A DNA stretch of 64,000 bases from Leucoraja erinacea (taxonomy: Eukaryota). Positions 4,521 through 34,570 of the stretch are shown one piece after another. Location: the NCBI RefSeq assembly GCF_028641065.1, contig NC_073405.1:17422001-17486000 (forward strand), given 5' to 3'. Each line of letters begins with the position of its first letter. The first letter of the stretch is position 1. Under the pieces are notes generated by a model that saw only the letters and a program-made list of their open reading frames with translations, ran no database searches and was not told where the DNA came from. Both the position numbers and the translations under genes were made by a program.

Positions 4521-5183
4521 GTCACATACCAGAGGCTGCAGCCTCGGCATCAGGTGACCCCCAACAACGGATTCAATTTAACTTCTGTGCTGCACCGTCT
4601 GTGTTCTACATGCTACGTAAACTCTTTCCATGTTTTTAATTATTCAGTCCCCCTCCACTTTACATTGCAGCCTCTAAACTGCAAACGATTATCCTGGCCA
4701 TAACAGAGAGAGAAAGGGGATGTGTAACGTGAAGCTCAGGGAACATCATCTCACCTTCTGACTTAATTCAGTACTTAGCCTACATTGTAACCGCTTCAAA
4801 TAACCAACCATTGTAGTTTGTGTCTGAATTGGTCAATTCTGGTGAAAGGTCATTGCCCGCAATGTAACTTCAGTTTTAAAGTTCTCCGCAGGTGCGGGCT
4901 GACCACCTGAATATTCCCAGCAATTGTTAAATGTACTTTATTTATTATCTTTCCCAAATATTAAATGTCTTGTTTTAATCTTATCATCACTGCCTTCCAA
5001 TTACCCTGTCCCTATTCTTCCCAGCACCCCAGCAATGGAACTTCCCGCCGCTCCTCCCTGATACCCCATGTCCGAAGCTGCAGCAGAGAGACGAGTCTCC
5101 ACCCTCCTCCCACCTAGAGTCAGAATGGGAAGAGATCCCAAGATAACGAGACACACACGTAAATCATTTCTGCATTGATCATC

Positions 5184-5189
5184 TTTATT
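5184..5189 (-). terminator. polyadenylation signal, IgL cluster 1
   Basis: AATAAA about 330 nt after the C stop, conserved in cluster 2 (34072-34077); a second AATAAA at 5248-5253 is not conserved. Confidence 0.7.
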
Positions 5190-5515
5190 GGTAGTTTGAC
5201 GTCGTTACAGATGGTCAGTCTGATACTGATGAAGATTTACAAACACTTTTATTAATCAGATCTATGCCTGATGCCTGAGAAAACAATGTTGATCAGGCCA
5301 AGTTACTGACCACTTTAACCCGTGTCGCCTAACGGTGAAAGAAACAGAACAACAATCAACTCGAGTACAAATGTTTCAATAACACGGTGGAAACAGGAGA
5401 ACGCGGATCGGAAACAGGTAATACAGAGAACAGCGGGCGCACACAGTGGGAGGAAGATGAGAGGCAGTGACCTCCCAGTAATCCGGGAGCAAACACGCCC
5501 GGAGCCGCGCTCACT

Positions 5516-5838
5516 TTAACAGCTGGATTGTGTGATTGTGGCGGATATTTTCGAGGCTGCTCCTTGCTGAACTGTGCAGGAGTACAACTTCCCACTGCTC
5601 CAGTCTGCGCCGAGCACCGCCAGATAGCTGCTGAGACTGAAGGTGTTGTCCGTGTCCCGCCTCACCGCGCTGGTTTGCACCTCACTGCTCGGCGGACTCC
5701 CGTCCACTGTCCAGCTGACGGCGGGGAAGCCCGCGGACAGTTTACTGACCAGGCAAACTAAGGTGCCCGCTCCTTTAGCGGACATCTCCTCGTCTGACGG
5801 CCCCAGCAGTTTCACTGAAGGATCTGGGAGCTGCGAAG
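5516..5838 (-). CDS. IgL constant exon, cluster 1
   Basis: TTGCAG acceptor in phase with J; C1-set motifs (TLVCLV, W, FSLSSYL, YSCTV); terminal Cys then TAA. Confidence 0.95.
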
Positions 5839-7096
5839 CTGCAATGGGAACAATAGAAGACATGTTTCAGGGGACGGAAGAGCTCGGTCATCTCAGCGTT
5901 TGACAGTTGCAGCTTCCTCTAGTGGGGACCCGAGTCTCACTGAGGGACGGAGCGGTGCCCACGGAGGTCGCCCCATGGATGTCCACACTGGGGAACGAGA
6001 AATGTGAGGCCAAGTTCCTGTTTTAGGGCCCTGCTAATAACTCGCTGGTTCACTGCATCAGCCACTCGGTGACCCCTCGCCCTGGGACCAACTAGTGCCG
6101 GTGGGGAATCGACTCCAACTGGTGGGGCGACCCCGGGTCACTTCAATGTGCCCACTCACGGAGCCACTAGCTACACGTTCCTCCTCTTCCCTTCGCCCCA
6201 CCCCATCCATCACTGATGTCCCCGCTGTGCCCCCCACAGCTGCCCGGAGAATAAACACATCTCAAACTCTGCACCGCCCCAGAGGGCGAGGACAGCTGAG
6301 CTTCACGGAGCTGCGACGGTGCCGAGGGATTCGGGTCCCATTCACTGTGGGGGGGGGGGGGGGGGGGGGGGGCAGGTGCGATTCTCCCCAGACCCGGAGC
6401 TGCGACCTCAGTCGCTGCAGAGACGGCAATCGCTGAGCGGCGGTGAAGGGGAGAGATGGCAGGAGAGAGGAGGCAAGGACTGGGGAACTGGGTGAGGGGC
6501 TTTTATTGGGCAGGAGAGTTCGTCGTCACCGGGAGGATTGGAGTTTCCGTGAAATTCCGGGGGAGATTCCGCTGTGGGATCCTCATGCAATAGTGAAACG
6601 TATAGTTCCACTGCCTCAACAACCCCGGGCTGTCTCCAGTCGCCAATGTCCTCTCCCCACTGTGACACCGGGCTCCACTTTAGGAAGCTGGGGCCCCTCA
6701 CATTCAATTGGATCAAACCGGCACAAAGCGGATGAACTAACGGGAGTAACACCGCGCAAACTCAGAGATGAAGTTAGTCTCCGAAACACAATATTCACAA
6801 GCACATGCAGAGACAGAGCAACAACACCACACAAAGAAGTGATTAACCGAGAGTGTACCTTTGTGAAATATCAAACAAGCTTCACGAAATAGAGAATGTG
6901 GTCATTAAAATACAGTAACAATTCACTGAACACAACTATATTTATTGGAACTGGTGCTGGACACAGAACTTAAATGGATTGAAAAATAAAAATTCTCGAT
7001 AAAATTAGCCAGGTAATAATAAAGGTTAAAGAATTAGTTGCCAACTGACCGTATTCTCGCGGTTAGTAATTGCGGGATGATTTCCCAGACACTTAC

Positions 7097-7134
7097 CTGT
7101 AACAAAGAGCTTGGTCCCTGGGCCGAACATGCCC
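7097..7134 (-). CDS. IgL J segment, cluster 1 (GMFGPGTKLFVT)
   Basis: FGxG motif; 38 nt; phase-1 GTAAGT donor; abuts the heptamer. Confidence 0.95.
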
Positions 7135-7172
7135 CACAGTGTGTGGTTCCGGCTTCAGCCCTGACAGTTATC
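7135..7172 (-). promoter_or_regulatory. J1 RSS (perfect heptamer, degenerate nonamer at 22 bp)
   Basis: Heptamer at 7135-7141; the best nonamer near 23 bp is ACAGTTATC (7164-7172, 5/9 match). Confidence 0.7.
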
Positions 7173-7488
7173 CCGGGCCCTGGAATCAGACAGAAAACAC
7201 GGGCAGACGCTCCAGTTTCCGCATGAAAGTCGACTTCACACATCCCGAGTGTCCCTGCCGGTGTGGGTTGGGGAAGGGATGAACTCACAGCCGCATCGCC
7301 AGGCTTGACATTAAACGGCATCGAATCCCGGCAGTGGGCGGTGGGACTCTGAAACTTCAAAAAAAAAGAAATATTGAAATTGGAAAATACTGTATAAAGG
7401 ACAAAATTAAAGCGACTTTGTGAAGAATGAAAGATTAGAATGTTTTCATTGATTAAAAGATGTAAAGTGCATCATGTTTGTTGCCTCC

Positions 7489-7516
7489 AGTTTTTGTTTT
7501 ACCTTCTCTCACTGTG
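7489..7516 (-). promoter_or_regulatory. V1 recombination signal sequence, 12-bp spacer
   Basis: CACAGTG + 12 nt + ACAAAAACT on the minus strand. Confidence 0.95.
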
Positions 7517-7840
7517 TGTAAGTACTGCTCGCTGGAAACCACTTCATACAGTAATAGACGGCAGCGTCATTCACCTCCGCCTTGCTTATGATCAACTGGT
7601 AAACGGTGGCGGCGCCGTTGGCTTTCGAAGTGAAACGGTCGCTGCTAAACCCAGACCCATAGGTCGGGACGTTGTTTCCGTGATAATACCGGAGGATCCA
7701 TTGAGGAGTTGTTCCCGGTATCTGTTTGTACCAATAAGAGTATCCGTTATCCTTTATTCCGACATTGCAGTCCAGCGTGGCCGTGTCCCCTGGATTCACC
7801 GACACGGTCGCAGGTTGGATTACGGTCTGACTCTCCCCAG
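7517..7840 (-). CDS. IgL sigma-type V segment, cluster 1 (germline, unjoined)
   Basis: TTTACAG acceptor; Ig V motifs C, WYKQ and DAAVYYC; short CDR1 and long CDR2 with the YGSGFSSDRF motif typical of sigma (teleost L2 / Xenopus sigma) V domains; ends at an RSS heptamer. Confidence 0.93.
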
Positions 7841-7936: not shown

Positions 7937-7982
7937 AGCTCAGCCACAGTGCCAGGGACCAGATAAAGCACAGCGTTTGCAT
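7937..7982 (-). CDS. IgL cluster 1 leader exon (MQTLCFIWSLALWLS)
   Basis: ATG at 7982; hydrophobic 15-codon exon of 46 nt, phase 1; GTAAGT donor; a 96-bp intron leads to the V exon. Confidence 0.93.
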
Positions 7983-8109: not shown

Positions 8110-8619
8110 TCACAGTGAGCGACCGGAGCGCGGATCTGAAACCCTCCCATTCGCCATCAGACACGGTCGGGTTGAGGCGGTGACACTGTCAGCCACTGGC
8201 TGGTCTGTTAAACACAACCCGTGAATGAGCAGATCGTCTGTTGTCTGATATTCCCCAGGTTCTCCCTCCATCCCCCTGAGTCAGTGGTTGCAACAATCCA
8301 TTCCTCAGTCCAGCGATGCCTCTCACACCTGCAGTCACAACAGGGTGGGACAGTGCAGTCTTCCTGTCCCACATCAATAATCCAGACACAAGAGACTGTA
8401 GATGCTGGATTCTTGAGCAAAAATGAAACTCTCGCTAGATCTCAGCGGGTCCGACAGCGTCTATAGAGGGAAAACCCTCTTGACCAGAAACGTTGTCTGT
8501 CTTTGTCTATTCGCTCCACAGTCGCTGAATTCCTTCAGGAGTCCATTTTGTTACTCAATAATTTAGACATCGAGTTAAACCCATCCTTACTGATGATGTA
8601 GTGTATTCAATTCAATTTG

Positions 8620-10040
8620 AGGACACGACATTGGGTTGGTGGTAGGACGCAGGGGATGGTTTTGAAGGATTGTTTCCCAAATGGGAGTTCTGTGACTAGT
8701 GGTGTGGCACAGGGCTGGTACTGCTCCACTGCAGCTTGCCACATTAATTCATGATGATGGGGATTCTCCCTCCATTTCCCTGATTCAGTTGTTCCCGCAC
8801 CTCATCTCTCAGTCCAGAGATGCCCCTTACACCTCCAGTCACAACAGTGTGCGACAGAGCAGGCTTCAGATACAATAGATTGAAGATACTGCCACATTAA
8901 ATCATGATGGGGAGGAAAATAGGTGTCATTATTACTACGTTTCTGGAAGGCATCAAAATTGGTGGGAGAGTAGGCAGTGAGGAATGCTGTCTAACCTTAC
9001 AACAGGATATTGATCAACTGGGAACGTGGCAATGTAATGGTAAATGGATTTTACTCATACAAGTGCAAAGTGATTCAGTTTGAAGCATCAAGCAGGCAAG
9101 GACATAATAATGAATGGCAGGACCCTGGGTAGTATTGCTGAAAATAAAACATTGGGGTAGATGTATATAGTTCCCCGAAGGTACCAACACGGGTTTACAA
9201 GATGGTGATGAAGGCTTGTGGCTTGCTGTTGCTTAAAAGATTTGGAAGGTTATGTCATGGTTGTACAAAATATTAGTTAGACTGCACGTGGAGTATTGCT
9301 GAGGCTCTATGAAGCACTGGTCATGTTGCATTTGGAGTACTGTGAGCAGATTTGGACCCCATATCTGAGCAAGGATGTGCTGGCAATGGAGAGAGTCCAG
9401 AGGAGGTTTACAAGAATGATTCCAGGATTGAGTGGGTTAGGATATGATGAAGTTTAGAGGTTTGAGGGCGGACCTCATTGAAACTTACAGAATAATGAAA
9501 GGCATAGAAAGAGTGGCTGTGGAAGATGTTTCCACTGGTGGGAGAGTCTAGGACCAGAGGTCGTAGCTTCAGAATTAAAAGGCGCTCTTTTAAAAAGGAG
9601 TTGAGGAGGAACTTCTTTAGTCAGAGGGTAGTTAATCTATGGAACTTACTGCCATAGAGGGCTGTGGGAGGCAAGTTAGAGGATATTTTTAAAGCAGAGA
9701 TAGACAAGTTCTTGATTAGAACAGGTATCAAGGGTTATGGGGACAAGGCAGGAAAATGGAATTAGGTGCCAGAGATCAGCCATGATTGAATGGTGGAGTA
9801 GACTCAATGGGCCAAATGGCCTAATTTTACTATAACTTGTGAACTTGTATGCAGTTCCCATCGCTGTGCTGTGGGAAGGATGGGATTAAACCAGAGAGGA
9901 TCCAAAGAAGATCCACAAAGATGTAACTTGGATTGGAGGGCTTGAGTTAAGAGGAAGATGTGGATAAGATGAGACTTTTTCCCATAAATGAAATAAACTC
10001 AGGGGTGACCTGATAGAGGTTTATAGCATTATTTAAGATA
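8620..10040 (+). mobile_element. Nested CR1 LINE fragments
   Basis: Old reverse-transcriptase-region fragment with a younger 3' end at about 9290-9850. Confidence 0.75.
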
Positions 10041-10388
10041 GATAGTAGTCACAGTGACACCACTTCCTCCATTTGTGGGAGAAAATCTACCATATGTACC
10101 TGGACTTTCTCTATCTCCAATCCCATCTGTGCCCTCTGCAGTGACCCAGCAACACTGCCATTGCCCGTGACAAACAATGGAAGACCCTCGCCCATCACAT
10201 TCTCCAGGTATCTCTGGATGGACAGCAATTGTCAGTTCTGCCAGTGACAGCCACATTCAAAAGTGTGGAAATCAGAAGTTGACCAGTTTCTGTGTCTGAG
10301 GCAAAGCGTTGAGTAAATGTACTACTGGAAGCAGAGTCCCACTGAGTTTACACTAGTATTTGTCTTCAATAAAGACCCAGGAATTAAA

Positions 10389-10528
10389 GGGTTATCAGTC
10401 TGAAGAAGGGGTTTTGGCTCGAAACGTTGCCTATTTCCTTTGCTCCATAGATGCTGCTGCACCCGCTGAGTTTCTCCAGCATTTTTGTTTACTTCGATTT
10501 TCCAGCATCTGAAGTTCCTTCTTGAACA
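10389..10528 (+). mobile_element. Short Penelope-derived element with hammerhead-like core
   Basis: CTGAAGA..GAAACGTT; flanked by the 11-bp duplication CAGGAATTAAA. Confidence 0.7.
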
Positions 10529-11029
10529 CAGGAATTAAATAAGTTCATTGTGGGTAAGTAAGTCAATAGGTAATTGAATAGTGATGGTATATTGTGTGTA
10601 TCCCATACAGTACGTGAATTTATACCGTACGTGTGTGGGTCGTATTTGTAAATCTACCCTTGGATATGGGGACTATGTTTAACCTGCTCCAGCGCTGAAA
10701 TAACTGCCTATTTTATTTTACACACGCAATTAGATGTACTTACATATATATATTCATAGTTACGTTATTTTCTTAAGAGGAAAGATGTAGATCTGCTTTA
10801 CTTATATGTTAACCAATACTAACACACAAATGCTACACACCACTATTATCTATAATCCAGTCCGGCTTGTTATCATACTGGCACCATTCATACTAACGCT
10901 CCTGACACAAGCTGCCAGTCGTGATGCAGACACAGTGATGCCAACATGCTGTGTAACTTTCTTATATGCCAATAAACTTGTTGGATCTTCACTTTGAGTA
11001 TGTGTCAGTTGCTCTACAGATATCCACCT

Positions 11030-11650
11030 CATTCTTGAAAGTATTTAATATATATTGGCCTCCACTGCCTTCTGTGTAGAAAATCCCCAAGGATTCAACA
11101 CACTCGGAGTGGAAAAATTCCTCCTGTTCTTGTACTAAAAGGCATCCTCTGAATCCTGAGGGCATGAGCCCTGGTTTTGGACTCTTCAGTAATTTGTGAT
11201 ATCTTCCTGGGAACAGGTCTGTTCAATCCTTCCAAACATTATTGTTATCTATGAGACCCACTCTTACTATCTTCTACTCTGGTGAATATAGGCCTAATCG
11301 ACTCATTCTCTGCCCATACATCAGTCCTGCCAACACAGGAATCAGTTCAATAAACCATTGTCGCACTCCCTTAACGGCACCAACATCCTTCCTCAGATGA
11401 GGAGACCAAAACTGCACAAAATTCCAAATGGACTCTCACCAAAGCCTTGTCTAGTTGCAGCAGATTATCCATTACTGATGTACAATAATATCCAGGTCTT
11501 GCCTCCCCTTATCTATATTCAGATAATAATTCATTTTTCTGTTTATGAAACCAAAGTGAATAATCTCACATTTATCTACAGTGAACTACATCTCCCACAC
11601 ATTTGCCCACTTATCCCACTTGCCCAAATCACATTGGAGTTTGCTTGCAT
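11030..11650 (-). mobile_element. Decayed CR1 LINE fragment
   Basis: Similar to the CR1 copy at 53.3-54 kb. Confidence 0.7.
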
Positions 11651-14287
11651 CCTCCCCACATATTCGCACACCCCACCCACAACCATAACCCCTGAAACAC
11701 AGCAGTTGTGGAATCTAAATTCAGTTAATAAGTTGCATTTCGAAATAAGAAAACAAATCGGTTGACTCAGAATTCTAATGAAATGTGGTAAAAACTCACC
11801 TGATTTACTGATTCAGCATTCCCACGGGATCACCCTCATCCACTCCACTGGATACACACTCATGACCTCCAATTGAGCAGTCAAATATGACTTTTTTCAC
11901 AAATCCATGCTGACCATGTTCAATAATGTAATTATTTTCTTGGTAACTTACAGTCATCACACGTGCTTGATTATACATTCCATTAACTGCTTATGTCAGG
12001 GTAATTGGTTGGCAATTCCCAGTTCACTTGCTTCATAAACAGTGAGGATGACTTGTAACAAAAGCTTCCTCCCAAACACTGAAAGTAGCTTGGCTGCCCA
12101 ATCAATATAAGGTGACACTGTACTGAAGAAGATAGCCGACAAAACTGAGTAATCAGCAGGTAGTGATGAACGTACGTGACCACATCTGCACCACTCTACC
12201 TGTGGCAGATGCACCCATCCATGACAACATTGGTTGAACATGTGCACAGTCCTTGTGAAGGCAAAGTGTTATCTTCACACTAAGGACACCTTCCATCGTG
12301 ATCTGTGGCTTTGGCAAACATGCTAACTTGAATAGATTCAGAACAAAGTAGACAGCTTGAAACTGGGTGTACTTGAGATGTCCTGGGCCATCGGCAGCAG
12401 AAATGTCCGCCAGAAAAATAACCTCATTGCCCAGCATATCCCTCACCTCACCATTACTATAAAGCCAGAGGAATAACACGCGTTCAGTGAGGAACGTGGA
12501 TGCTCATGTTGGGACAAGTACCACACATACTTGAACAAGTGGTGTCAGCTTAGTGAAGCTGCAGCAGAGGATTGCTGGCACATTTAGCAATAAACTCAGT
12601 GTGGAATGGCATAACCTAACAACTAATGGACCAGATCAAAGCCCAAAAGTCAGCCATGCTGGGTCAGAAATGATGGAAGACAATTTAAACAGGTAACCGG
12701 TGAAAGAGGCTCCAAACACATCCCTGTCCTCAACCATTATGCAACCTACTCGGTGAGTGCTAAAGATAAGGTTGAAGCAGGCACTTAAACGGCAAGGCAT
12801 AAAATACAGACCTAGCTTGGGTACATGGGATTGTGTAGATGGGCGCGAATGTGGGCATGGATGAGATGGGTGAAAGGGCCTGTTGCTGTTCTGTGCAAAT
12901 CTTTGAATCTCTGGTCACTTGCCTGAGATCTCCAGATCAGATAGCAGGAGGTAGAGGAGCAGAAATGCAGACAAATCACAGACTGGTGTAAGAGGAACAG
13001 TTACTGCAATGGGATGTAATTCCCCCAATATTGATTGGGATTACTGAAGTATGAAGAGCTTAGATGGGGTGGAATTCATGACAAGCATCCAGCAGAGTAT
13101 TTTTAGCCAATACATAGATGGTTAGACTAGTGCCTGTCTGTACTAGAACGTATTTTGGGAATGAGGTTCAGCAAGTAGTGCAAGCGTCAGTGAGGAACAT
13201 TTTGAGGATAGGGATTGCAATTCCGCAAGATTCAAGGCAGTTGTGGAAAATGGTAAAACTACTCTGGAAGTTCATATCCAAAATTAGGGGAAGGCTGTTT
13301 CCATAGCATAAGCCAGGAGCTGGAGAAAGTTGGCAGGGAGCAGCAGCTTGTGGGTACCACAACAATCCAACCAGTCAAATTTTTTTTCAAAAGAGAGAGG
13401 GTGAGTGTTCAGGGAAAACATGTTCTCATTTGGATGGCAAGGTTAAAGGAATCCTAGATATCAAATGATATTGAGAGTTTGAAGAAAGGAAAGCAGTATA
13501 TGGCTGGTACAAGTGACTGAAATGGGAGAGTCCCTTGAAGAGCATATATATTGGAGGAGTGAAGTTCAAAAATATATTTGTAGGGCATTGAAGGGCCTTG
13601 AAACATCACTGGGATATGACAACATAGATCTAGTGTGAACGGGTGACCAATAGTCAGTCGGCGTGGATGTGGTGGGCTGAAGTGCCCATATCCATCCATA
13701 TCTTTTTTTTAAAGATGATGGAGAAACTGAAAGGATTTTATGAGGATTTTAGGTGCAAGAGGGCCTGTTCCTATGATGGACAATTCTATAATTCTGTAAC
13801 TAGACCAGAGAGCTGAATTCCAATGGTGAGGAGAGAGTGAGTGGCCGTGACACCAAGGCAACATTTGACCAAGTGTGATATCAAGCTGTCCTGGTTACAT
13901 TAAAGTCAATGTGCATCGAGATGAAAATACACCAAAGGATGGAATCAATAACATTCCTTCTTTCACAAAGTCAGAAGTGGTGTTGTACACTTGTGATTGC
14001 AGCTCCTCAGCAAATGAACGAGTCCATAACTACTGTATTGTAACTGTAATTTTTAATATAAAAATTTTTTTTTTTTAAATATTTAATATAATCTTTAAAC
14101 ATCTGCCTAAGAATACTACCTATTCATCCTTCACCATTTTGCCTTTATAGATATGTATATAGCGCCGCAGAATTGTGCACCTATCCCGCCCCCTCCCCCT
14201 TTTGTTTTGTTTTCTGTTTCTTGTTTTTTGTACTAAATTATATGTATGCACTGAGTACGAGCTGCTTTTAATCTCATTGTACATGTA

Positions 14288-14443
14288 NNNNNNNNNNNNN
14301 NNNNNNNNNNNNNNNNNNNNNNNNNNNNNNNNNNNNNNNNNNNNNNNNNNNNNNNNNNNNNNNNNNNNNNNNNNNNNNNNNNNNNNNNNNNNNNNNNNNN
14401 NNNNNNNNNNNNNNNNNNNNNNNNNNNNNNNNNNNNNNNNNNN
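14288..14443. other. Assembly gap (156 N)
   Basis: Run of N. Confidence 1.
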
Positions 14444-14844
14444 CCAAGACAACATCCAGACATTGGCTGATATGTGGCAATGAGGCCACCATTTACCATC
14501 ATTTAATATGGACCAGACATATGAATTGTACAGTAACGAGCAAACCAAAGGCTGGATCAGCCCTAGGTGAATGACTCGCCCTCTGACGGCACAGATCCTT
14601 TCACCATTTGCAAGGACAGAATACTCTCCACTTGTTGAGATGAGCACAGGTCCAATAACATTCCAGAAGCTCACCATTATCCAGGACAAAGCCACTCATC
14701 CACCATCTGGAATATTCATTCCCGCCAACATTGGACAGTCAGAACTTTTTTCCAGGATGGAAATATCAAACACTAGGGGCCATAACTTTAAGGTGAGTGG
14801 GGTAATGTTTACAGCAATATGCATGAGATGTATTTTATACACTT

Positions 14845-15812
14845 AATAATAATAATACTAAATTTTATTTATGGGCGCATTTCAAGAGTCTCAAGGACAC
14901 CTTACAAAATTTAGTAACAGAATAAAAAACATGTAAGCAGAATGAAACAAAATAAAAAAATAACGACAAAAAAAAATAAAAATAATAAAGACATCAACAA
15001 TACACAATTCAAAGAGAGAGCAGCGGCAGCTAATTGCGCCAGCGTTCACTCTCCCTTCCGGCAGCCATCTTGGAAACGGAACAAATTAAGAATCATTTAA
15101 CATAGAAACATCCCCCCACAGTGGTTACCATTATGAGTGAAGGCACAATGTCCAGTCCCCAACCCCAGTTCACCTATAGTCGGGCCTATTGAGGCCACCA
15201 CAGTTGCCTCTACGGAGGCCCGATGTTCCAGGACGTTCTCACCGGGTGATGTTGGTCTGGCATCGGGAGAGTCCTCATAGCGGTTTGGCACACCTGGAAC
15301 GGCCACTTCCTTACCGGAGACCGCAGCTTCCGAAGCCGACAAGGCCGCGACGGTTGGAGCTCCACCTCTGGCGATCTCATCGAGAGATCTCAGGCTCCCG
15401 ATGTTGAAACCAGCGGCGCCGCCCGCAGCTGGTCGCTCCGCAGACCCGCAGCTCCGCGATGTTTTCCTCGGGGCGGTCCAGCGCGGCGACCCAGGCAAGG
15501 CATCGTCCGCTCCGCTCCGCGATAGCGCTCCAGCACTGTGCCGCCACCAAAGCAGAAGGTGCTGGGCGGTCCCCGACAGGAAACGCCGCTCCAGGCCCGC
15601 TGGTAGGCCGCGAGGACGGGTCGAAACTGCAGCCCGGAGAAAAGCTGCCTCTCCAACCAGGTAGGGACCTAGAAAGTAGTTTCCCCATCCCCCCACATAA
15701 AAAAGTCTAGACTGCCTAAGATAAAATACAAAACTCACTAAAAATTAAAGAAAAGAGTGGGAAAAACGGACAGCTACTAGCTAGGCAGCCGTGCCCCAAG
15801 ATGGCGGCCCCC
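14845..15812 (-). mobile_element. GC-rich non-autonomous retroelement with L2-type 3' tail, inserted in a CR1 3' end
   Basis: Minus strand ends TGTAAGGTGTCCTTGAG...ATAAAT..(TTA)n; CR1 sequence resumes on both sides; possible CACTT duplication. Confidence 0.6.
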
Positions 15813-21347: not shown

Positions 21348-21350
<3 letters not shown>

Positions 21351-21393: not shown

Positions 21394-21398
<5 letters not shown>

Positions 21399-23070: not shown

Positions 23071-23686
23071 CAATACTAATACTCAAAGTAACATCTATGA
23101 TAGAAGAGAAACTAAGATATTTGGATAATATGGTAAAAAAGGCACAATCTAAACATCTTGCCTCAGTTCTGGGCAGCCCCGCTCCTTAAAATAACAGCTC
23201 GTTTCCTGCTGGGGCCGCAGATGTTTGTTATTTTCACACCCAGGGTGCAGCTGATATCAACTGTACCAGACCTCTTTCTTTAAACGACAAGCACATTTTC
23301 ATTAAAAAAGTTGGAGCATTGAAAAGAATGCATCTTCCACATTTACACTGCTCAATAATGCTGGAATATCCCATGGAGTTCTCTCCCACTGGATCAAGTC
23401 ACAGACCTCACTCATCACAATATAAACCATGTGCTGAAGCTGATCTGAAATAATGTAAACTGATTGGTGTAGTACTAACTCTCTGCAGCCGTGGCTCAAT
23501 GAATACAATTTCTCTATTAAAATTAACACAGTTGACTTCAATATCCTGATTTTATTTGAATTAGATTTATCACACTGATCAATTGAATGCATGAGTAGAA
23601 TATATGACCAACAAGGCACTACTGTTCATTGATAGCATATTAAAATTCAACTGACAACGGCATGAGTCCATCAGCTCTATTTATAA

Positions 23687-23769
23687 GGTAGACACAAAAT
23701 GCTAGAGTAATTCAACGGGTGAAGCAGTGTCTCTGGAGAGAAGTTTCGGGTTGAGACCCTTCTTCAGAT
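23687..23769 (-). mobile_element. Short Penelope-derived element
   Basis: Flanked by the 14-bp duplication AGCTCTATTTATAA. Confidence 0.7.
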
Positions 23770-26700
23770 AGCTCTATTTATAATATCAGTTCTATGGAGT
23801 GAAACAGAATTATTCACAGATGAAAAATAGAAACAAACACACAAAGGTCCCGACACAAAATGTCACCTATCCATGTTCTCCAGAGATCTTGCTTGACCTA
23901 TTGAGTTACTCCAGCACTTTGTGGGTTTTTTTGTAAACCAGCATCTGTAGAAAGGTCTCGACCCAAATCATCACCCATTCCTTCACTCCACAGATGCTGC
24001 CTGTCCCGCTGAGTTACTCCAGTGTCTATCTGCAGTTCCTTGTGTACTCAGTAACGTTGGCTGAACAAAAACTGAACAGTTAACTTCCATTTTCCATCGT
24101 CTCCATTTTTAACATTTTGCTGTGAGGATTCTGTTGTAAGGAGAAAATTTTAGACACTTTGTGTGGTTGACATCTACCAACAATGCGACTTAACTTGCAT
24201 CATTGTTCTCGGGGTTAAAGGATTCTACACAAATGAGAGAGTCATGGCTTTGGAAGCACTGGATCTGACAAAGGAAGGTGTTTGCTGGAGCCACGAGCTG
24301 CCATTTCATCTCCGTGACTGGACAGGGCAGAAACAAAGCAGGACACTAGGAAATAACTGCCATTACTAATAACTACCTTACTAACCGCTCCAAGTCAGGA
24401 GATGCTCAACTGGAATAGAGCTGCTCGCATTGGTGTCACTGTCTCAGCATCAGAGTTCAACATTGGAGGGTAAGAATCACAGACTCGCAGAATGGTTACA
24501 TCACGGAAAGGTGCCTTTCAGCTTGTTGACTCCAAACCACTCCTATGTAAGAGAAGTCCAGCATCCCAACCCCCAGTCCTCTCCCCACAGCCCTGCAGAT
24601 TCAGATACTGTACATGTCCAATTCCTTTCTGAACATTGCATTGATGCTCCACTGGTATTGCATTATATCGTGCTCTCTGTTGCACTGCTGCAAGTAAAAA
24701 TGTCATCATTCCATTTTGCGACATGTGACAATAAAAGTTCCTTCACTCTTCTTCTTCACAGTCACTCAGCACTCTCCAGATACATAAATGTTCTTAAAGT
24801 CACTTTTCCATTCCCTTTTATTCCATTCCCCCTGATTCTTTGCCCTCTACCGATGTAAACAGTCTCTTCCTTTCTACTCTGTCGATTCCTTATAAGCTTT
24901 TAAATACTACTGTGAGATTTCCATTATCTGAACAAGACAATCCACACAACCAAAGTCAATCACATTTTAGTTACATTTTAATTTCTCTGTCAAGCTTTAT
25001 TTGTCCTATCTGCCCATGGGAAAGTGGTAGTGACCTGTCTTCTGGAATGTTTACATTCCTACTGGTGAAGGTGCTCCAAGAGTGTGGGTGGATAGGGAGA
25101 TCCAGGATTTATACTCATTAACAATAAAGGTCTATCAATATAAATGTCCAATACAGGATGCTATTGAAGCTTAGAAGTGACCATACAACCGTGGTGGTAC
25201 AACCATGCATCTTCTGCCATGTGTTCTTGGTAGACAGTTTTGGACGTGTTATCGTTGTAACCTGGGGAAGTAACATGAGAGCATTTGTAGATTGGACACT
25301 GTGCCGATATTGTACTCCAGTGTTAGAAGTAATAAATCTTCAGGGTGGTGGTTAAGCAGCCATCCAATGGCTTGTCTTGTCTATGCCTTGTCTGAAACAG
25401 TGTTAAACATTAGGAATGTTGTTGGAGATGTGTTCATCTCGCTGGATGAAGAGTATTCCAATCAAGAGCACTTGACTTGGACCTTGTAAATGGTGAAAGT
25501 TTCTGCGGTATCGGGAGTTAGATCAATCAATTCAACATATGCTGCATTTGGCCTTTCTGTTCGTGGAGAATTCACAACTGGTCTAGTTGAATTTATGCTC
25601 AAGCTGATCCTCAGGAAATTGATCATGGTGGGGAAGAGGCTCAGAGATAATGATGGCATTGAATGCCAAAGGTAGGTGGTTAGACTTACACTTGTTAGAC
25701 ATGGTCATGGTCTGGCATTTCTATATTGTGGACATTACTTGCCACTTATCTGCCCATGTTTCAACATTGCCTAGATACACTGCATGCTGAAAGGCATTAA
25801 AGTCCCCAAATAGAGAACACCTGCCACCTCACCACTATCATTTCTTTTCCCATGGTTTTTTGATATGTTCCAGCGGGACTTCCATTGAGCCAATCCCATT
25901 GTATAAGACAGAAGAAAAACTGCTCACTACCAATCTGTTAGACTGGCATCAATACCTACAATCAAGGGTGTGAGATCAGGCCTCCTAGGAAATAATTACA
26001 TGATTAAGCAGAATCAACACAGATTTGTGAAAATCACACTTTACTGATCAATTGGATGTCTGAGGATGTATCTGGTAAAATAGATGAATATTATACCCTG
26101 GGATTGCTGAATAATTATGAACTCAATATGTATGAGTTCAACAGCCCAGAGCTCAACAGAAAACGCCAGTTTTGGCCGAACCAGTGTTTTCTCAAAGTTC
26201 CTATCATGACTTACTTACTGTTGCTCTGTCTCTGCTGATGAGGACCTGTGTCACCTTGACTTGTGCTTTTCATTAAAACATGCACATACACCTCTAGATA
26301 GCTCTGTTCTTGCACTGTTTTTATATTTGTACACTCTGCTTGGTATTGCACTTTCAGATTCCTTCTACCAAACAGTAACTCCCACCATTCTTCTTTGTTA
26401 ATTTATATATTGGACAAAGTCAACATAAGTTGATAGAATGTGACTTTCAGCAGCGGCTGAACCAGATAAGTGGCTAAGAGATTATTATCTCAGTGCAGAT
26501 AGGTTGGCAAAGTGGAGACCTGGATGTTGTTGTACGCCAGTTGCTGAAGGCAAGCAGTGAGGAGGCCAAGGAGGAGATTGTCCATCTCACCAAACCTTTG
26601 ACTCTCAATCGTGAGCGATTGTTGAATACCCTCCTCAAGTTTGGCTCCCAATGAAATACATTTCCAGTTTATGTTTATTCTGCAAATTTTCTACAACAGA

Positions 26701-29700
26701 ATCATTCGTTCTGAAAACCAGTGGTGAATGAAGGTGCCCAGCTGCACAAACATTTTTCTCAATGTTTCTTGCTGCATGTTGCATCAAATTGGGAGTGGAG
26801 ATGATGGGAATCATCTGGGAATGGAAAGCTAATGGGAAATTGTTAAACCTCTGGTAACAGCAATCCAGACAGAAAGTTAGCCAAACCTTAGTAGTCAAAC
26901 TCCTCATGGAGATGATGCTACTATGATGTGCCTTTCACCATTGCATTAAATGTGTCAGCACACATTTTGGGGGAAATAGTATTTGAAGACCAAGACTGTA
27001 GCACTGGCACAAACCCATGGTCTACCGGGGAACTGTAATTCCTGCTTCCTATCTGTTTCTGACAACTGAACTTGCTACACCAGGCATCACATGACACTGC
27101 AGAAGAACCGCCAACAGTATCTCCATGGAATCCATCAAATTCATTGTAGACACCAGTGATACAATGCCATTGTCCACTCCAAGATAAACATCACCCGTTC
27201 TGTGGCCCTAGTCATGTCTAGTTGCCTGTGTTGTGCAGGTTGATTTGTTCGCATACCCTTGTCCGTACTCTTGCAACACATAGACTATTATAAGTTCTGT
27301 CATGGGTAAGGCCACACGCAAACTGGAGGATCAGCTCCTCATATTGTAGTTTACAACCCGACAGTATGAAGTCAATTCAAATAATTTCCCCATCTAACCC
27401 TTCTCTCGTTTCTATGCCTCCTCTACCACCTGGGTATGCATCTAATTCTCCCTACATCTGCCCCACTCACCCTGCTCCACCCCTTCACTCATCTCCCATC
27501 CCCATGTCCCCATTTTCCTATTATCTGTCCCTCTTTCCCTTCCCCTCTGCCTCTTCCCTTCCATTTCACTCTCTCTGGCTTTATACGATAATGACGACAC
27601 AATCTTTTAACTTCTGAACTTCTGACAAGGTCTCACATGGCAGCAAAACAGTAAAATGCAGTGGGACCCATGGGTTGTGGCTCCTCGTCTGACTGATGAA
27701 GTAGAGGACAATGAAAGCTGAAGAAGTGGGGTGGGGTTGGGAAAAATACTGATAAGTCTGTGTCAGATGAGTGGTTGTGATTGGCAGATGGGTGGACTAA
27801 GTGACAAAGGCTGGAGACTAAAAGGGCACAAAAGCTTGTCAGTTACGGAGCGCAGAGGAAGGATGAAATATAAACCTCCTCTATTGCATTTGGAGCTCCT
27901 TATGTGGCCTCCTTTACATCAGTGAGACCAAGCATTTTGTAGACAACCATTTTGCCAAATACTTGCACTCTGTCCACCAAGGTCTGCTGGATCTCCCAGT
28001 TCCTGTCCTTTTAACTCACCTTCCCTTTCCCATACTGATCTTTCAGACCAGGAGGACCATGGACCTGATTTATAGGCATGTTCAAAGCCGTTTGAAGTAA
28101 TGCAACATCACCACTAACTCCAGGGACTCTATGGCCCATGAGCATTCAGGTCGAAATGGAGCATTCGGCTTTGAAACTTGTACTTGTTGAGGTCATGTGT
28201 CAGCAACACAGACAAACCTATCTGTGATGGAGGGAGTGGACCAGCTCACTAACTACACACCCTCATACTGAAGGGTCTGTGATTCCACGTTAACCTCATT
28301 GGCCAGTTCATGTGGAACAAAACTGGAATTCACCCTCCATCCCTAGGGATTGGCTAAGAAGATTCACACCACATTCACCCTTCCCTCATTCACCCTCCTC
28401 TCATTGCTCCCCTACCCTACCATGTATGGAGGAATATTTAGTCCTTCATTGCCCTTCATTAATTATACCCCATTGCCACTATATTACATGCTCTTTTTCA
28501 TCTTCTTTACAATGCTACTTTCCTAAGTTCATTCTCTGCCAAACCATCTTAAACCTCTCCTCTTTCTCCAGCTACACTATCCATGATGTGGCTCCTTCTA
28601 GGTCTTTGAGGAAGAATCGTGCAGGCCTTGGATGTGCCCATTCTGCAACTGGATCCTCCACTTCCTGACCCACAGCAATCAGTAAGGATGTCTGACAACT
28701 CCTACTCCACGGTATTTCTCAACACTGTTGCCCTGCAAGGCATTGTTCTCAGACACTTATTGTGCTCCCAATACACTCTCAACTGTGTGGCCAAATTCTG
28801 CTTTAACTTTGTTTACCGTTTGCAGATGATATCACAGTGCCACAACAATCAGATGGAGTAAAGGAAGGGCAGAGAGAGCAGGGTGCCACACAGATGCCCT
28901 GACCCATCTGCCACTTCTTTGTCTCTCTAGTGGTTTCCCGCTCCCCCACTGCCAGCACTCACTTTAGGTGGAGGATGACCACCTCCTGAAACCTGCTGCA
29001 CATGAAACAATCGGCCTTGGGATCAAGGTCCATTTGGGCATGGACTGTTGGTGCTCGAGCTCCAAACGCAGAGCTTGAGCTGATCTAACTGGCATCACTT
29101 CCTGTATCTGAGCTTCCAGGAATCAGGAAGCATTGTAAGTTCCCAGGCCCCACTGTTTGCCCATTTCTATGACTTAGAGATTCCCTCCCATGAGAGAGTC
29201 CCTCTCAATGAATAAAGAATTCAATCAAAACACTATGACTATTCAATGGACCTTTGCCCAACTTCAACCAAACAAACGTATTTAATTCCCTGGGTCTTTG
29301 TTGAAGACAATTGGTTGTGTAACTCACTGGGACCCTGTCTCCTGCTCTATGTTTACACAAAGTATTTCACTAGACCCTGGGACTGATCAAGCTTTAATTT
29401 TCCACATTCTTGGAATACGGATGCCACTGGCAAAGCCAGTTGTTGCCATTCCAGTGGTGCCTGGACACATTAATGGCTGAGGCCCTTCTATTGGTGGTTG
29501 TAGACAACTGACTGGGTTGCTGGGAAACTTCTGAGGCAGGCTGTGGGACTGGAAACATTCACAGGGAAGCATGGAAGTTAATGAGTCTTCTGGTGTTTCA
29601 GGTCATCAACAATTCATTGTGACTGAGACCATTTTCCATCCTCACGCTTAGATTGCATACGTAGGTTTAGGGATTCCTTAAATGATACAGCATTGAAACA

Positions 29701-30858
29701 GGTCATTTGGCACACGTTGTCCATTCCAACCAGGATGCCAATCACAAATAATCCAATTTCCCGGCATTTGACACACCTGTAAACCATTCCTATCCATGCA
29801 CTCTAAATGCTTGCTCCTCTGACAGCTCATTCCATATACCCATCCCCTTTGTGTGAAAAACCTGACCCATAGCACATCTTCAAACGATGCCCTCTTGTAT
29901 TAGACTGTGACTATCTACCTTATCTATACCCCGCACACTTTATAAGCTTCTAGAAAGGTCACCTCTAGCCTTCCTCCACTCAAGGGACTAAAGGTTCAAG
30001 CCTTTACAATCTCTCCTTATGAATCAAACCGTCCAAACTAAGCTTGTGCACCTGATCTGAACTGTTTCTAGATCCAACATATATTCTTTGAGCATGGCAG
30101 GAACTGAGCACAATATGCCAAGTGCAGCCTAAACAAGGGCCCCTCGGTCCTGCAACACTGTCTGAGTCAAATATATTTTTCCCATTCATTTTCCTACTTT
30201 CCCAGTTAAAGTTTGGTTGCAAACGTAGACAGTATTTTCCACGTGTCCACTATACCCCAATTCTTGCGTCATATACAGATTTAATAATCATGCCACCTTC
30301 ATTCTCATCCAAATCATGAATATATGTGACAAGCAACATTGGCCCTAACACCAGTCCCTGTGGCACCACTGGTCACAGACGAACTTGAGAAACAATGCTC
30401 TACTATCACCCTCTCTGTCTTACCACCAAGCCAATGTTGGATTCTCAATTGTAGCGGTGGGTTTCAACTTAAAGTCTAAATTAGTACGAAAAAACAAACT
30501 GACTGAGGAATTCCGGGTTTAAAGAATCATCTGTGGAGGAAATTACACAGACCGCGTTTTGGGCCAAGATTGAAGTAGGGTCCCGACCGCACATCTCCAA
30601 CCCCTCGTGCCTGAAGCCTGCACTGTCCCACCGTGTTGTGTATTGAGGTGCGAGGAGCATCTCTGGACTGAGGGATGAAGTGTTGCAACCACTGACTCGG
30701 GGGAATGGTTGGAGAAGGTGGGGGATATCAGACAACAAACGACCTGTTCATTCACGGGTTGTGTTTAACAGAGCAGTCAGTGGCTGACATTGTCACCGCA
30801 TCAACCCGACCATGTCTGATGGCGTGTCTGATGGCGAATAGGAGGGTTTCAGATGTGA

Positions 30859-30985: not shown

Positions 30986-31031
30986 ATGAAAACGCTGTGC
31001 TTTTTGTCGTCTCTGGTACTGTGGCTGGGCT
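30986..31031 (+). CDS. IgL cluster 2 leader exon (MKTLCFLSSLVLWLG)
   Basis: Kozak context ACCATG; 46 nt, phase 1; GTAAGT donor; 89-bp intron. Confidence 0.93.
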
Positions 31032-31120: not shown

Positions 31121-31444
31121 CCGGAGAGTGTCAGACTCTGACTCAACCTGCGACCGTGTCGGTGAATCCAGGGGTCACGGCCACGCTGGAATGCAACATC
31201 GGGACAGATGATAACCAATATGTTTATTGGTACAAGCAGACGTTGGGAACAACTCCTCAATGGGTTCTCCGGTATCATCAGTCAGAGGCCGCCCCGACCT
31301 ATGGGTCTGGGTTCAGCAGCGACCGTTTCACATCGAAAGCCAACGGCGCCGGCACCGTTTACCAGTTGATCATAAGCAAGGCGGAGGTGAATGACGCTGC
31401 CGTCTATTACTGTATGAAGTGGGTTTCAGCGAGCAGTATTTACG
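31121..31444 (+). CDS. IgL sigma-type V segment, cluster 2 (germline, unjoined)
   Basis: Open 324-nt exon, paralog of V1, with intact C/W/YYC motifs. Confidence 0.93.
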
Positions 31445-31472
31445 CACAGTGAGAAAGGGTCGAACAAAAACT
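31445..31472 (+). promoter_or_regulatory. V2 RSS, 12-bp spacer
   Basis: CACAGTG-AGAAAGGGTCGA-ACAAAAACT. Confidence 0.95.
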
Positions 31473-31787
31473 GGAGGCAACAAATATGATGCACTTTACA
31501 TCTTTGAAACGATGAAAACATTCTAATCTTTCATTCTTCACAAAGTCGCTTTAATTTTATCCTTTATACAGTATTTCCCAATTTTAATATATCATTTTTT
31601 TTGAAGAATCGTTGTCCCACCGCCTACTGCCGGGATTCGATGCCGTTTAATGTCAAGCCTGGCGATGCGGCTGTGAGTTCATCCCTTCCCCACCCACACC
31701 GGCAGGGACACTCGGGATGTGTGAAGTCGACTTTCATGCAGAAACTGGAGCGTCTGCCCGTGTTTTCTGTCTGATTCCAGGGCCCGG

Positions 31788-31825
31788 GATAACTGTCAGG
31801 GCTGAAGCCGGAACCACACACTGTG
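31788..31825 (+). promoter_or_regulatory. J2 RSS (perfect heptamer, degenerate nonamer)
   Basis: GATAACTGT + 22 nt + CACTGTG; identical to J1. Confidence 0.7.
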
Positions 31826-31863
31826 GGGGGTGTTCGGCCCAGGGACCAAGCTCTTTGTTACAG
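31826..31863 (+). CDS. IgL J segment, cluster 2 (GVFGPGTKLFVT)
   Basis: FGxG motif and GTAAGT donor. Confidence 0.95.
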
Positions 31864-31929
31864 GTAAGTGTCTGGGAAATCATCCCGCAATTACTAACCG
31901 CGAGAATACGGTCAGTTGGCAGCTAATAT

Positions 31930-32295: not shown

Positions 32296-32299
32296 AATC

Positions 32300-32582
32300 G
32301 GTTTTGAACCAAAAAATATTTAATCAATTATTTACAATAATATTTACAGTACGAAATCAATCAAAACAAAATCCACCGCCATAATTCAAGGCAAACAAAT
32401 ATACTAAATACTATACTATACAACTTTAGTACAATCCTTATTGAGAATGACTTCCACCCCACGCAGAGCCCAACATTCCCGGAAATCCCCCAGGGCGCCC
32501 GTGGACAGCGCGTAATCCCTCTCAAGTATCACCCGGGTGCGGCGGTAACCCCAGAAAAGGGGCAGGCTGCCGGCTCGGGCAT
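32300..32582 (-). mobile_element. 5'-truncated Tx1-like non-LTR retrotransposon 3' end
   Basis: LPLFWGY..RVILERDYALSTGALGDFRECW resembles Tx1 ORF2 C-termini, followed by a T-rich UTR; absent from the cluster 1 intron. Confidence 0.7.
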
Positions 32583-33398
32583 TAATCATTCTCTTTGTGG
32601 TGCAGTTGCTCTGTCTCTGCATGTGCTTGTGAAAATTGTCTGCCTGAGACTAACTTCATCTCTGAGTTTGCGCGGTGTTACTCCCGTTAGTTTATCCGCT
32701 TTGTGCCGGTTTGATCCAAGTGAACTTGAGGGGTCCCAGCTGCCTAAAGTGGAGCCCGGTGTCACAGTGGGGAGAGGACATTGGCGACTGGAGACAGCCC
32801 GGGGTAGTTGAGGCAGTGGAACTATACGTTTCACTATTGCATGAGGATCCCACAGCGGAATCTCCCCCGGAATTTCACGGAACCTCTAATCCTCCCGGTG
32901 ACGACGGAACTCTCCCGCAGACACCCGCCCAATAAAGGCACCTCTCCGTTCCCCAGTCCAACCCAGCGGCATGAACTAGGGCAAAGTCTCCGCGCATCCC
33001 ACCTCTCCGCATCTCCTCCATCAAAAGTCGGATAATCAGCTCCACAGTTCGCAACGATATATCCCTCCCGGGATCTCACCGTCCCTCGCCAACAAACAGA
33101 GCCACCCTGTGTGCTGGTCTTTTCTTGCTTCCAGTTCATTCCCCGATACATTCAGCCTAAAGAAGGGCCCCGACCTGAAACCTCCTGTTCTAGCATTTTG
33201 TGTCCATCTTTCCTAAAACAGGAACTTGGCCTCACATCTCTAGTTCCCCGGAGTTGATCCATGCGACGACCTCCATGGGCACCGCTCCGTCCCTCAGTGA
33301 GACTCGGGTCCCCACTAGAGGAAGCTGCAACTGTCAAACGCTGAGATGACCGAGCTCTTCCGTCACCTGAAACATGTCTTCTCTTGTTCCAATTGCAG

Positions 33399-33721
33399 CT
33401 TCGCAGCTCCCAGACCCTTCAGTGAAACTGCTGGGGCCGTCAGACGAGGAGATGTCCGCTAAAGGAGCGGGCACCTTAGTTTGCCTGGTCAGTAAACTGT
33501 CCGCGGGCTTCCCCGCCGTCAGCTGGACAGTGGACGGGAGTCCGCCGAGCAGTGAGGTGCAAACCAGCGCGGTGAGGCGGGACACGGACAACACCTTCAG
33601 TCTCAGCAGCTACCTGGCGGTGCTCGGCGCAGACTGGAGCAGTGGGAAGTTGTACTCCTGCACAGTTCAGCAAGGAACAGCCTCGAAAATATCCGCCACA
33701 ATCACACAATCCAGCTGTTAA
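33399..33721 (+). CDS. IgL constant exon, cluster 2
   Basis: 323-nt exon with one amino-acid difference from C1 (QQGTAS vs QQGAAS). Confidence 0.95.
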
Positions 33722-34071
33722 AGTGAGTGAGCGCGGCTCCGGGCGTGTTTGCTCCCGGATTACCGGGAGATCACTGCCTCTCATCTTCCTCCCACTGTGT
33801 GCGCCCGCTGTTCTCTGTATTACCTGCTTCCGATCCGCTTTCTCCTGTTTCCACCGTGTTATTGAAACATTTGTACTCGTGTTTATTGTTGTTCTGTTTC
33901 TCCCACCTCTAGGCGACACGGGTTAAAGTGGTCAGTAACTTGGCTTCATCAGCAATTTCAACATGAATTGTTTTCTCTGGCAACAGGCATGGATCTGACT
34001 AATAGAAATAATATATGTTTGTAATTTTTCATCAGTATCAGACTGACGGTCTGCAACGACGTCAAACTACC

Positions 34072-34077
34072 AATAAA
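34072..34077 (+). terminator. polyadenylation signal, IgL cluster 2
   Basis: AATAAA followed by GT-rich sequence; mirrors 5184-5189. Confidence 0.7.
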
Positions 34078-34570
34078 GATGATCAATGTTGGAATTATTT
34101 CCCTGTGTGTGTCGTTAACTTGGAATCTCTTCCCAATCTGACACTGGGTGGGAGGAGGGAGGAGACTCGTCTCTCTGTTCCGGTTCGTGTCCTTTGTTCC
34201 GTGAAGTGAGAGGAAAGCGCTCCTTCGCGGCAGCCTTGGACATGGGATATCAGGGAAGACCGGGTGGAAGTTCCATTGCTGGGATACTGTAAAGAATGAC
34301 AAGTGAAGGGCTGGGGGTATTCAGGTGGTCAGACAGTATCGACAGAGAGCGTTTAAGTAGAAGTTACATTGCGGGCCATTGAACAGAACAGACCACTTCT
34401 GACACAAACTGGAAGGACTGGTTGTCTGAAATGGGAGAGTTGTAGACTGGATCGAAGCGTTGATACCCGAATTTGTGTTGGTGACCGGGTATAGGAGTCT
34501 AGGGACAGACTGGCCGGAGAGGGAGAGGGGAGGAGAAATGAGTGAGTCGTTCGCTGTGGGGTGGGGGTGT

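What the first reader, a model, noticed from the sequence alone, without database searches (positions are those of the whole stretch)
4840..34390. Two sigma light-chain clusters form the outer arms of a ~30-kb palindrome with a sharp identity gradient
Seen: two intact L-V-J-C units in divergent orientation. Inverted homology continues inward to about 19000 vs 21090, leaving a centre near 20.05 kb and a spacer of at most about 2 kb. The inner arms are gapped and heavily diverged, whereas J, the V-J spacer, C and the 3'UTR are nearly identical (1 aa difference in C). Inference: one old inverted duplication whose Ig portions are repeatedly homogenised by arm-to-arm gene conversion. Selection alone would not easily keep the non-coding V-J spacer this similar.
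Basis: partly seen in the sequence, partly recalled or inferred. Interest (0 to 1): 0.75.

Follow-up and report, generated by a model that had tools for sequence, protein, structure and literature searches.

The report
Head-to-head skate antibody genes swap DNA
A skate carries its two sigma antibody light-chain genes head to head inside an old mirror-image duplication, and their constant and joining parts are about 99% alike while the binding loops and the DNA between them are about 73-75% alike, most likely because the copies keep overwriting each other in short patches, a known process seen here in a new gene pair.

Summary
Confirmed with corrections. Two intact L-V-J-C sigma light-chain units lie head to head (left on -, right on +); they are the only two sigma C exons found in the genome. 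Twelve collinear inverted blocks (72.5% identical, 21% of the inner arm) run in to 19456/20843. The pattern is a patchwork, not a gradient: C 99.1%, 3' V-J spacer 99.0%, 5' spacer 90.5%, CDR1-CDR2 74.5%, UTR falling from 95% to 76%. DNA contigs of four related organisms hold both inner arms, so the duplication is at least about 6 times older than their split from this genome. Yet both window arms share states that the relatives lack (a 16-base indel in the J-C intron, several spacer sites, one FR3 site where both resolved copies in two relatives differ). That supports gene conversion after speciation and argues against selection alone. Two broken sigma relics just left of the window show a longer history than one duplication. 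This is concerted evolution of inverted duplicates, a known kind; the scan noted a similar sigma pair in another genome. The untested bolder reading is V-J joining between the clusters by inversion.

The parts
5516..5838 (-). Left sigma C exon with stop
   Evidence: protein = NCBI record P0056
7097..7134 (-). Left J segment (starts G-M-F)
7135..7172 (-). Left J RSS: perfect heptamer, weak nonamer (5 of 9) at 22-base spacing; identical in both arms
7142..7340 (-). Left 3' V-J spacer, 99% to the right arm (recently converted tract, inferred)
7489..7516 (-). Left V RSS, 12-base spacer, nonamer 8 of 9
7517..7840 (-). Left sigma V exon
7937..7982 (-). Left leader exon; octamer-like site 118 and TATA 87 bases upstream
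4795..5515 (-). Left 3'UTR and downstream flank; identity to right arm falls 95, 90, 87, 83, 76%
8617..19456 (.). Left inner arm: 12 collinear inverted blocks, pooled 72.5%; holds the N stretch 14288-14443
19457..20842 (.). Central spacer (at most about 1.4 kb; the inverted match 19612-19707/20540-20636 inside it is a high-copy repeat)
20843..30448 (.). Right inner arm; its 22279-23552 block is split by a repeat insertion at about 22525-23078
30986..31031 (+). Right leader exon; octamer-like site 118 and TATA 84 bases upstream
31121..31444 (+). Right sigma V exon (older V lineage; CDR1-FR2-CDR2 74.5% to left, FR3 97.4%)
31445..31472 (+). Right V RSS, 12-base spacer, nonamer 8 of 9
31473..31620 (+). 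Right 5' V-J spacer, 90.5%; arm-specific states shared with relatives (older layer)
31621..31918 (+). Right 3' V-J spacer, J RSS (31788-31825), J (31826-31863) and first 55 intron bases; about 99% to left arm
33212..33398 (+). 3' end of right J-C intron, 94.1%; both window arms lack 16 bases that organisms C, D and E have after 33330
33399..33721 (+). Right sigma C exon with stop; 99.1% to left
   Evidence: protein = NCBI record P0001
33722..34430 (+). Right 3'UTR (polyA signal 34072) and downstream flank, end of homology

Best explanation
Two Ig sigma light-chain clusters sit head to head in an inverted duplication whose arms are shared with four related organisms, and their C exon, J region and 3' V-J spacer have likely been re-homogenised by short germline gene-conversion tracts after those species split. 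Inferred mechanism: purifying selection on C, FR3 and J keeps seeds of near identity; repair from the inverted partner 24-28 kb away copies these and spills into neighbouring non-coding DNA, fading with distance (UTR 95 to 76%); insertions and divergence cut the inner arms and the mid intron off from exchange long ago; CDR1 and CDR2 likely escape because selection keeps two different binding sites. The outcome is two distinct V domains on one effectively shared J-C.
For: Shown: feature-by-feature identities. Both inner arms are in single-copy contigs of organisms B, C, D, E, 126/9433, 220/8399, 260/5461 and 293/5097 different from the window on the longest listed pieces, against JC 0.34 between arms: ratio 25, 13, 7.0, 5.7. 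C-exon contigs stand at 1.5-2 times single-copy depth in all four, and the 5' spacer gives two 1x contigs in each of C, D, E, so these organisms have two clusters. A 16-base stretch after 33330 is in C, D, E and absent from both window arms and B; a 4-base insertion after 33387 is at full depth in C alone. At 31345 both window arms read G while both resolved copies in D and both in E read A; at 31691, 31692, 31757, 31767 all three relatives differ from both arms; at 33822 all four do. In 31626-31818 the arms differ by 1 substitution, each relative by 5-8 listed sites from both arms (Fisher p 0.03, 0.02, 0.11). Proteins: the V tree places the right V outside (Amblyraja, (left V, Rhinoraja pair)), 98/96, and rejects a left+right clade (p-AU 0.019), while C differs by 1 residue within the pair and by 4-12 from the other skates.
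Against: Contigs drop bubbles, so one hidden copy in a relative may differ from the path shown (3' spacer contigs are only about 1.4x depth); tables showed 40 of 1493 and 40 of 72 difference rows. The C protein tree alone is weak (left+right 78/61) and does not reject the V topology (p-AU 0.34). Position 31345 changes a residue and the Gly state also occurs in some sawfish copies, so convergence is possible there. Inner blocks were found by similarity, so 72.5% overstates average identity; the genome search missed a known 70% partner, so old repeat origin of single blocks is not excluded, and block 11806-11943 has 3 dispersed matches. No population data, so no tract was caught segregating. The selection steps are inferred, not tested.
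Confidence: 0.85

Rival explanations
1. Selection alone: both arms diverged independently since the duplication, and C, J and the spacer stayed alike because they are strongly constrained.
For: The most alike parts are coding or next to the RSS; C diverges slowly between species (9 of about 400 bases to organism E).
Against: Only 2 differences at 77 synonymous sites in C (p about 8e-9 at inner-arm divergence) and 1 in 193 spacer bases; the same spacer changes at 3-5% between species; both arms share a derived 16-base loss.
Confidence: 0.03
2. One recent replacement: a whole cluster was re-copied over the other arm once (or re-duplicated) in this lineage, rather than many short conversions.
For: The locus turns over: two relic units lie beside it and rays carry 6-8 copies in the protein set.
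Against: Identity inside the unit ranges from 74.5% to 100%, parts of the intron do not align, 5' spacer differences are shared across species, and organism C shows its own shared insertion: several events of different age.
Confidence: 0.05
3. Assembly artefact: short-read polishing or collapse made the two copies look alike, or the layout across the N stretch is wrong.
For: Near-identical paralogs are prone to this (established knowledge); an N stretch lies at 14288-14443; I did not lay DNA runs of the best-holding organism.
Against: The copies still differ at scattered sites; independent contigs of organism B also lack the 16 bases at double depth; the inverted chain continues in order on both sides of the N stretch against a right arm with no N.
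Confidence: 0.03
4. Conversion is seeded by RAG cuts at the J signal in germ cells, not only by preserved identity (an add-on to the best explanation).
For: Identical runs of 88 and 91 bases flank the J start, with the only 2 differences at the coding end; RAG action in germ cells is invoked for germline-joined shark genes (PMC4279169, passages).
Against: The longest identical run (197) is in C, 1.6 kb away; the V RSS with the better nonamer is only 85.7% alike; the J nonamer is weak.
Confidence: 0.07

Closest known systems
Cartilaginous-fish IgL sigma miniclusters (nurse shark and horn shark sigma, P0022 and P0019)
   Same: One V, one J, one C per unit, split leader, unjoined V-J; 70% identity (174 of 250) to nurse shark sigma; C 81-82%.
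   Different: Here the genomic layout is resolved as a head-to-head pair in an old inverted duplication with two relics; I found no description of this layout in searches (the two primary sigma papers were not held).
Human IGK proximal/distal inverted duplication (bioRxiv 10.1101/006866, passages)
   Same: Ig light-chain locus in inverted duplicate with signs of interlocus conversion.
   Different: IGK arms are hundreds of kb and over 98% alike, V genes only; here whole V-J-C units are doubled, arms are about 72% alike and conversion is confined to islands.
Concerted evolution with a divergence peak, as in primate red/green opsins (PMC3924837, passages)
   Same: Duplicates about 24 kb apart, paralogs closer than orthologs, a peak of divergence at the selected sites, exchange ended by insertions and divergence.
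   Different: Opsins are in tandem (recalled); here orientation is inverted and the peak is over antibody CDR1-CDR2.
Sex-chromosome palindromes with arm-to-arm conversion (PMC8981503, start of abstract in listing)
   Same: Inverted arms around a short spacer exchanging sequence.
   Different: Those keep over 99% identity along the arms; here only 21% of the inner arm aligns, at 72.5%.
Zebrafish IgL clusters with inversional rearrangement between clusters (PMC3014032, abstract)
   Same: Opposite-facing V and J of neighbouring clusters make inversional joins geometrically possible.
   Different: No inter-cluster join was shown here; reviews say shark and ray clusters rearrange within a cluster (PMC5192425, PMC4279169, passages).

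Membership tests
IgL sigma minicluster | Single V, J and C with split leader, open frames, splice sites | tested here: met
IgL sigma minicluster | Sequence groups with named sigma chains rather than other isotypes | tested here: met
   C 81-82% to records named sigma, 70% full length; next C family in own genome 51%
IgL sigma minicluster | 12-RSS after V | tested here: met
   perfect heptamer, 12 spacer, nonamer 8 of 9 in both (consensus recalled)
IgL sigma minicluster | 23-RSS before J | tested here: inconclusive
   perfect heptamer; best nonamer 5 of 9 at 22 spacing
IgL sigma minicluster | Both units rearranged and expressed | tested here: inconclusive
   P0002, from an unnamed run, is a V-J-joined left-type chain; one RNA run gave 1 read; nothing for the right unit
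Concerted evolution by interlocus gene conversion | Duplication older than speciation | tested here: met
   both inner arms in 4 of 4 relatives laid; arm divergence 5.7-25 times species divergence
Concerted evolution by interlocus gene conversion | Paralogs closer than orthologs, with derived states shared by both copies | tested here: met
Concerted evolution by interlocus gene conversion | Tract-like, patchy identity | tested here: met
   74.5-100% within one unit; identical runs of 197, 91, 89, 88 bases
Concerted evolution by interlocus gene conversion | Shared polymorphisms between copies within the species | not tested
Sex-chromosome-type palindrome | Arm-to-arm identity over 99% along the arms | tested here: not met
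   inner arms 72.5% over 21% of their length
Inter-cluster inversional V-J rearrangement (zebrafish type) | V and J of different clusters in opposite orientation with complementary RSS | tested here: met
   left V 12-RSS on -, right J signal on +, 24.3 kb apart, and the reverse
Inter-cluster inversional V-J rearrangement (zebrafish type) | Transcripts or DNA joints with V of one cluster and J-C of the other | not testable with these tools
   the two ends are over 20 kb apart, the limit of a lay; RNA run had 1 read; P0002 has left-type V and left-type C residue

The most novel reading that the evidence does not exclude
The head-to-head pair is kept as a working editing cassette: because J and C are homogenised, left V can join right J (or the reverse) by a 24-kb inversion, which leaves the other V next to the unused J for a second, deletional join. 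That would be inter-cluster V-J rearrangement and receptor editing in a cartilaginous fish, hidden so far because the two J-C parts are almost the same.
Probability: 0.15. Interest if true: 0.75.

Novelty: new member of a known kind. Interest (0 to 1): 0.42.

Why it matters
It is a clean, dated case of segment-selective concerted evolution in an antibody locus: J-C are kept uniform while two V lineages older than the split of skate genera persist. It warns that C-based trees and copy counts of elasmobranch light chains misdate duplications (in 16 of 16 species with several copies the mean V distance exceeds the mean C distance). With only two clusters and diagnostic bases in V, C and UTR, the locus is a simple place to test the standing claim that sharks and rays rearrange only within a cluster.

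Tried and rejected
A possible V pseudogene at about 17115-17280 (a heptamer at 17274): profile, tblastn and nhmmer searches found no Ig remnant in the inner arms; rejected. Expression: no RNA holder listed as such; RNA run X24 gave 1 read on 31295-31930, no evidence either way. Genome searches for uniqueness of inner blocks: 3 of 5 found only the partner or a local copy, 1 found nothing but itself and missed its 70% partner, 1 found 3 dispersed matches; too insensitive to prove uniqueness, so collinearity carries that point. The matches 1157-1294/36301-36435 and 19612-19707/20540-20636 were not counted as arm homology (multi-copy). C-protein tree alone does not decide. Three primary papers were not held, so prior description of the sigma layout in nurse shark or skate cannot be excluded; their supplements and those of PMC12227049 (gene coordinates) were not seen. 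Earlier notes near this place: none.
Full report
What is there. The window holds two complete light-chain units, left on the minus strand (L 7982-7937, V 7840-7517, J 7134-7097, C 5838-5516) and right on the plus strand (L 30986-31031, V 31121-31444, J 31826-31863, C 33399-33721), facing away from each other. The encoded proteins match two NCBI records named Leucoraja erinacea and are sigma chains: C is 81-82% identical to records named sigma, the right chain 174 of 250 to nurse shark sigma. Of 54 matches to C in the own genome only these 2 exceed 51%. Each V has a good 12-RSS; each J has a perfect heptamer but only a 5-of-9 nonamer at 22 bases (consensus recalled). The NCBI models read through the unjoined V-J gap and are not real transcripts.

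The inverted duplication. Sensitive self-comparison gives homology from 4795/34430 in to 19456/20843. Of 20 inverted hits between the inner halves I kept 12 and dropped 8 (6 in high-copy repeats, 2 locally duplicated); direct hits were 6, and two control stretches gave 3-4 hits per strand. The 12 are in strict mirror order, pooled 72.5% identical (JC 0.34), and cover 2269 of 11056 bases; the order test is partly circular because out-of-order hits were dropped. The chain passes the N stretch in order, against a right arm without N. Three blocks found only their partner or a local copy in the genome, but the search missed another known 70% partner and one block has 3 dispersed matches, so uniqueness is not proven; collinearity is the argument.

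The identity profile is a patchwork: upstream 87%, promoter 92%, leader 85%, FR1 86%, CDR1-FR2-CDR2 74.5%, FR3 97.4%, 5' V-J spacer 90.5%, 3' spacer 99.0%, J 36 of 38, first 55 intron bases 100%, alignable intron 93-95% with unalignable pieces between, C 99.1%, then 94.9, 89.7, 86.9, 83.1, 76.0% outward. Only the 3' end is a true gradient.

Age of the duplication. Contigs of four coded relatives (B, C, D, E) were laid on 15600-34400. All 4 have single-copy contigs on the left inner arm (about 16.0-16.9 kb) and on right-arm partner blocks (23077-23718 in C and D; 20613-21941 in B, D, E). On the longest listed non-Ig pieces (32 rows were shown) they differ from the window by 1.3, 2.6, 4.8 and 5.7%, so the arms are 25, 13, 7.0 and 5.7 times more diverged than the species, a lower bound since only conserved blocks were aligned. 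One contig of D joins 26660-27273 to the right promoter. In protein trees the five skate V sequences form a clade apart from sawfish (98/96), the right V falls outside (Amblyraja, (left V, Rhinoraja pair)) at 98/96, and a left+right clade is rejected (p-AU 0.019; 14 rows picked from 65; same order in the 65-row tree). So the V lineages likely split before the skate genera did.

Evidence for conversion. In the relatives the C region comes as one contig at 1.5-2 times single-copy depth (19.9, 88.4, 22.9, 10.3 against about 9-10, 45-52, 10-16, 4-6), and the 5' spacer as two single-depth contigs in C, D and E, so they too have two clusters. Sixteen bases after 33330 are present in C, D, E and absent from both window arms and from B; four bases after 33387 are inserted at full depth in C alone. 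At 31345 both window arms read G, while both separately resolved copies in D and in E read A. At 31691, 31692, 31757 and 31767 all three relatives laid differ from both arms, and at 33822 all four do. Over 31626-31818 the arms differ by 1 substitution and 1 gap, while C, D and E differ from both arms at 7, 8 and 5 listed sites (Fisher p 0.03, 0.02, 0.11 against equality, although the arms are the older pair). Thus the spacer is free to change between species yet stays the same between arms. C has 2 differences at 77 synonymous sites. In the 5' spacer the arm-specific states recur in the relatives' two contigs, marking an older layer. Limits: contigs hide bubbles, 3' spacer contigs are only about 1.4x depth, tables showed 40 of 1493 and 40 of 72 rows, site 31345 is a residue change that also occurs in sawfish, and the C protein tree alone is weak (78/61; V topology not rejected, p-AU 0.34).

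How it likely works. Shown: old inverted arms, young identity in islands, shared derived states. Inferred: germline repair from the partner arm, seeded where purifying selection keeps identity (C, FR3, J), spreading into adjacent non-coding DNA and blocked by insertions and divergence; CDR1-2 stay as diverged as the inner arms, likely because selection keeps two binding sites. This is the model reviewed in PMC3924837 (passages). The Amblyraja V looks left-like in CDR1 and right-like in CDR2, which fits exchange between V genes. Across the protein set, 16 of 16 species with several copies have mean V distance above mean C distance, so the pattern is likely general for elasmobranch sigma.

Longer history. 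A V search gave 4 matches at E 1e-12 or better: the two window V exons and two relics 2.7-4.3 kb left of the window. One is promoter, leader and half a V on minus (79% and 77% to the left and right units); the other is a V with a stop on plus (about 70%) running straight into the end of J and the intron, without RSS or C. The order is relic, relic, left, right in alternating directions. Loose ends in contigs of C and D match the second relic by eye.

Against what is known. Inverted Ig duplicates with conversion are known for human IGK (bioRxiv 10.1101/006866, passages); conversion of Ig-like C exons is reported in sharks for UrIg2 (PMC12227049, passages). Reviews state that shark and ray clusters rearrange within a cluster by deletion (PMC5192425; PMC4279169; passages), while zebrafish rearrange between clusters by inversion (PMC3014032, abstract). 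Searches gave no description of this skate layout, but three primary papers were not held. PMC5985310 and PMC13320880 (passages) added nothing on it. The scan has an unreviewed note of a similar head-to-head sigma pair in another genome; my reading was written before that look-up.

Verdict. Real, well supported, and a new member of a known kind: interest 0.42. The bolder reading, inversional V-J joining between the clusters with a second join left open, is allowed by the geometry but has no evidence here: the RNA run gave 1 read and the one joined chain seen (P0002) is left-type in V and C. Probability 0.15.

Noticed in passing
L001:5678-6326 (-) and L001:6943-8610 (+), i.e. 1.4-4.3 kb left of window base 1: Two broken sigma relics: promoter, leader and half V; and a V with a stop fused by deletion to the end of J, without RSS or C. 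The second also shares 89% inverted identity with window 4783-5011.
   Followed up: partly
window 16041-16928: The left copy of the largest inner block changes about half as fast between species as its neighbours and its right partner (organism C 10 of 877 against 24 of 637; D 26 of 912 against 33 of 649): a candidate shared enhancer between the two promoters.
   Followed up: no
window 31439-31462: Six substitutions in 24 bases, one a tandem pair, at the V end and RSS spacer are private to the right arm against the contigs shown for C, D and E, which read as the left arm; origin unexplained.
   Followed up: partly
window 31788-31825 and 7135-7172: The J signal has only 5 of 9 nonamer bases at 22 spacing in both arms, with a 7-of-9 nonamer 48 bases away, yet V-J joined chains exist in skates.
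   Followed up: no
window 31621-31818 against inner blocks: The most homogenised non-coding parts are GC- and CpG-rich (3' spacer 58% GC, CpG ratio 0.78) against 32-47% GC and CpG ratio 0-0.3 in inner blocks; GC-biased conversion or an unmethylated island could explain it.
   Followed up: partly
window 31930-32288: A 180-base tandem duplication (78% alike) in the right J-C intron; the left intron has one copy.
   Followed up: no
window 8260-8363 and 8764-8867: A 104-base direct duplication upstream of the left promoter, both copies matching right 30593-30716.
   Followed up: no
proteins P0037, P0041, P0044 against P0043, P0047, P0048: In catsharks and smooth-hound two V lineages cross species while C groups mostly by species, the same V-old, C-young pattern.
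   Followed up: partly
G000:C25:22.30-22.98 Mb: At least 19 other light-chain C exons (41-51% to sigma C) in mixed orientation form a separate cluster array.
   Followed up: no
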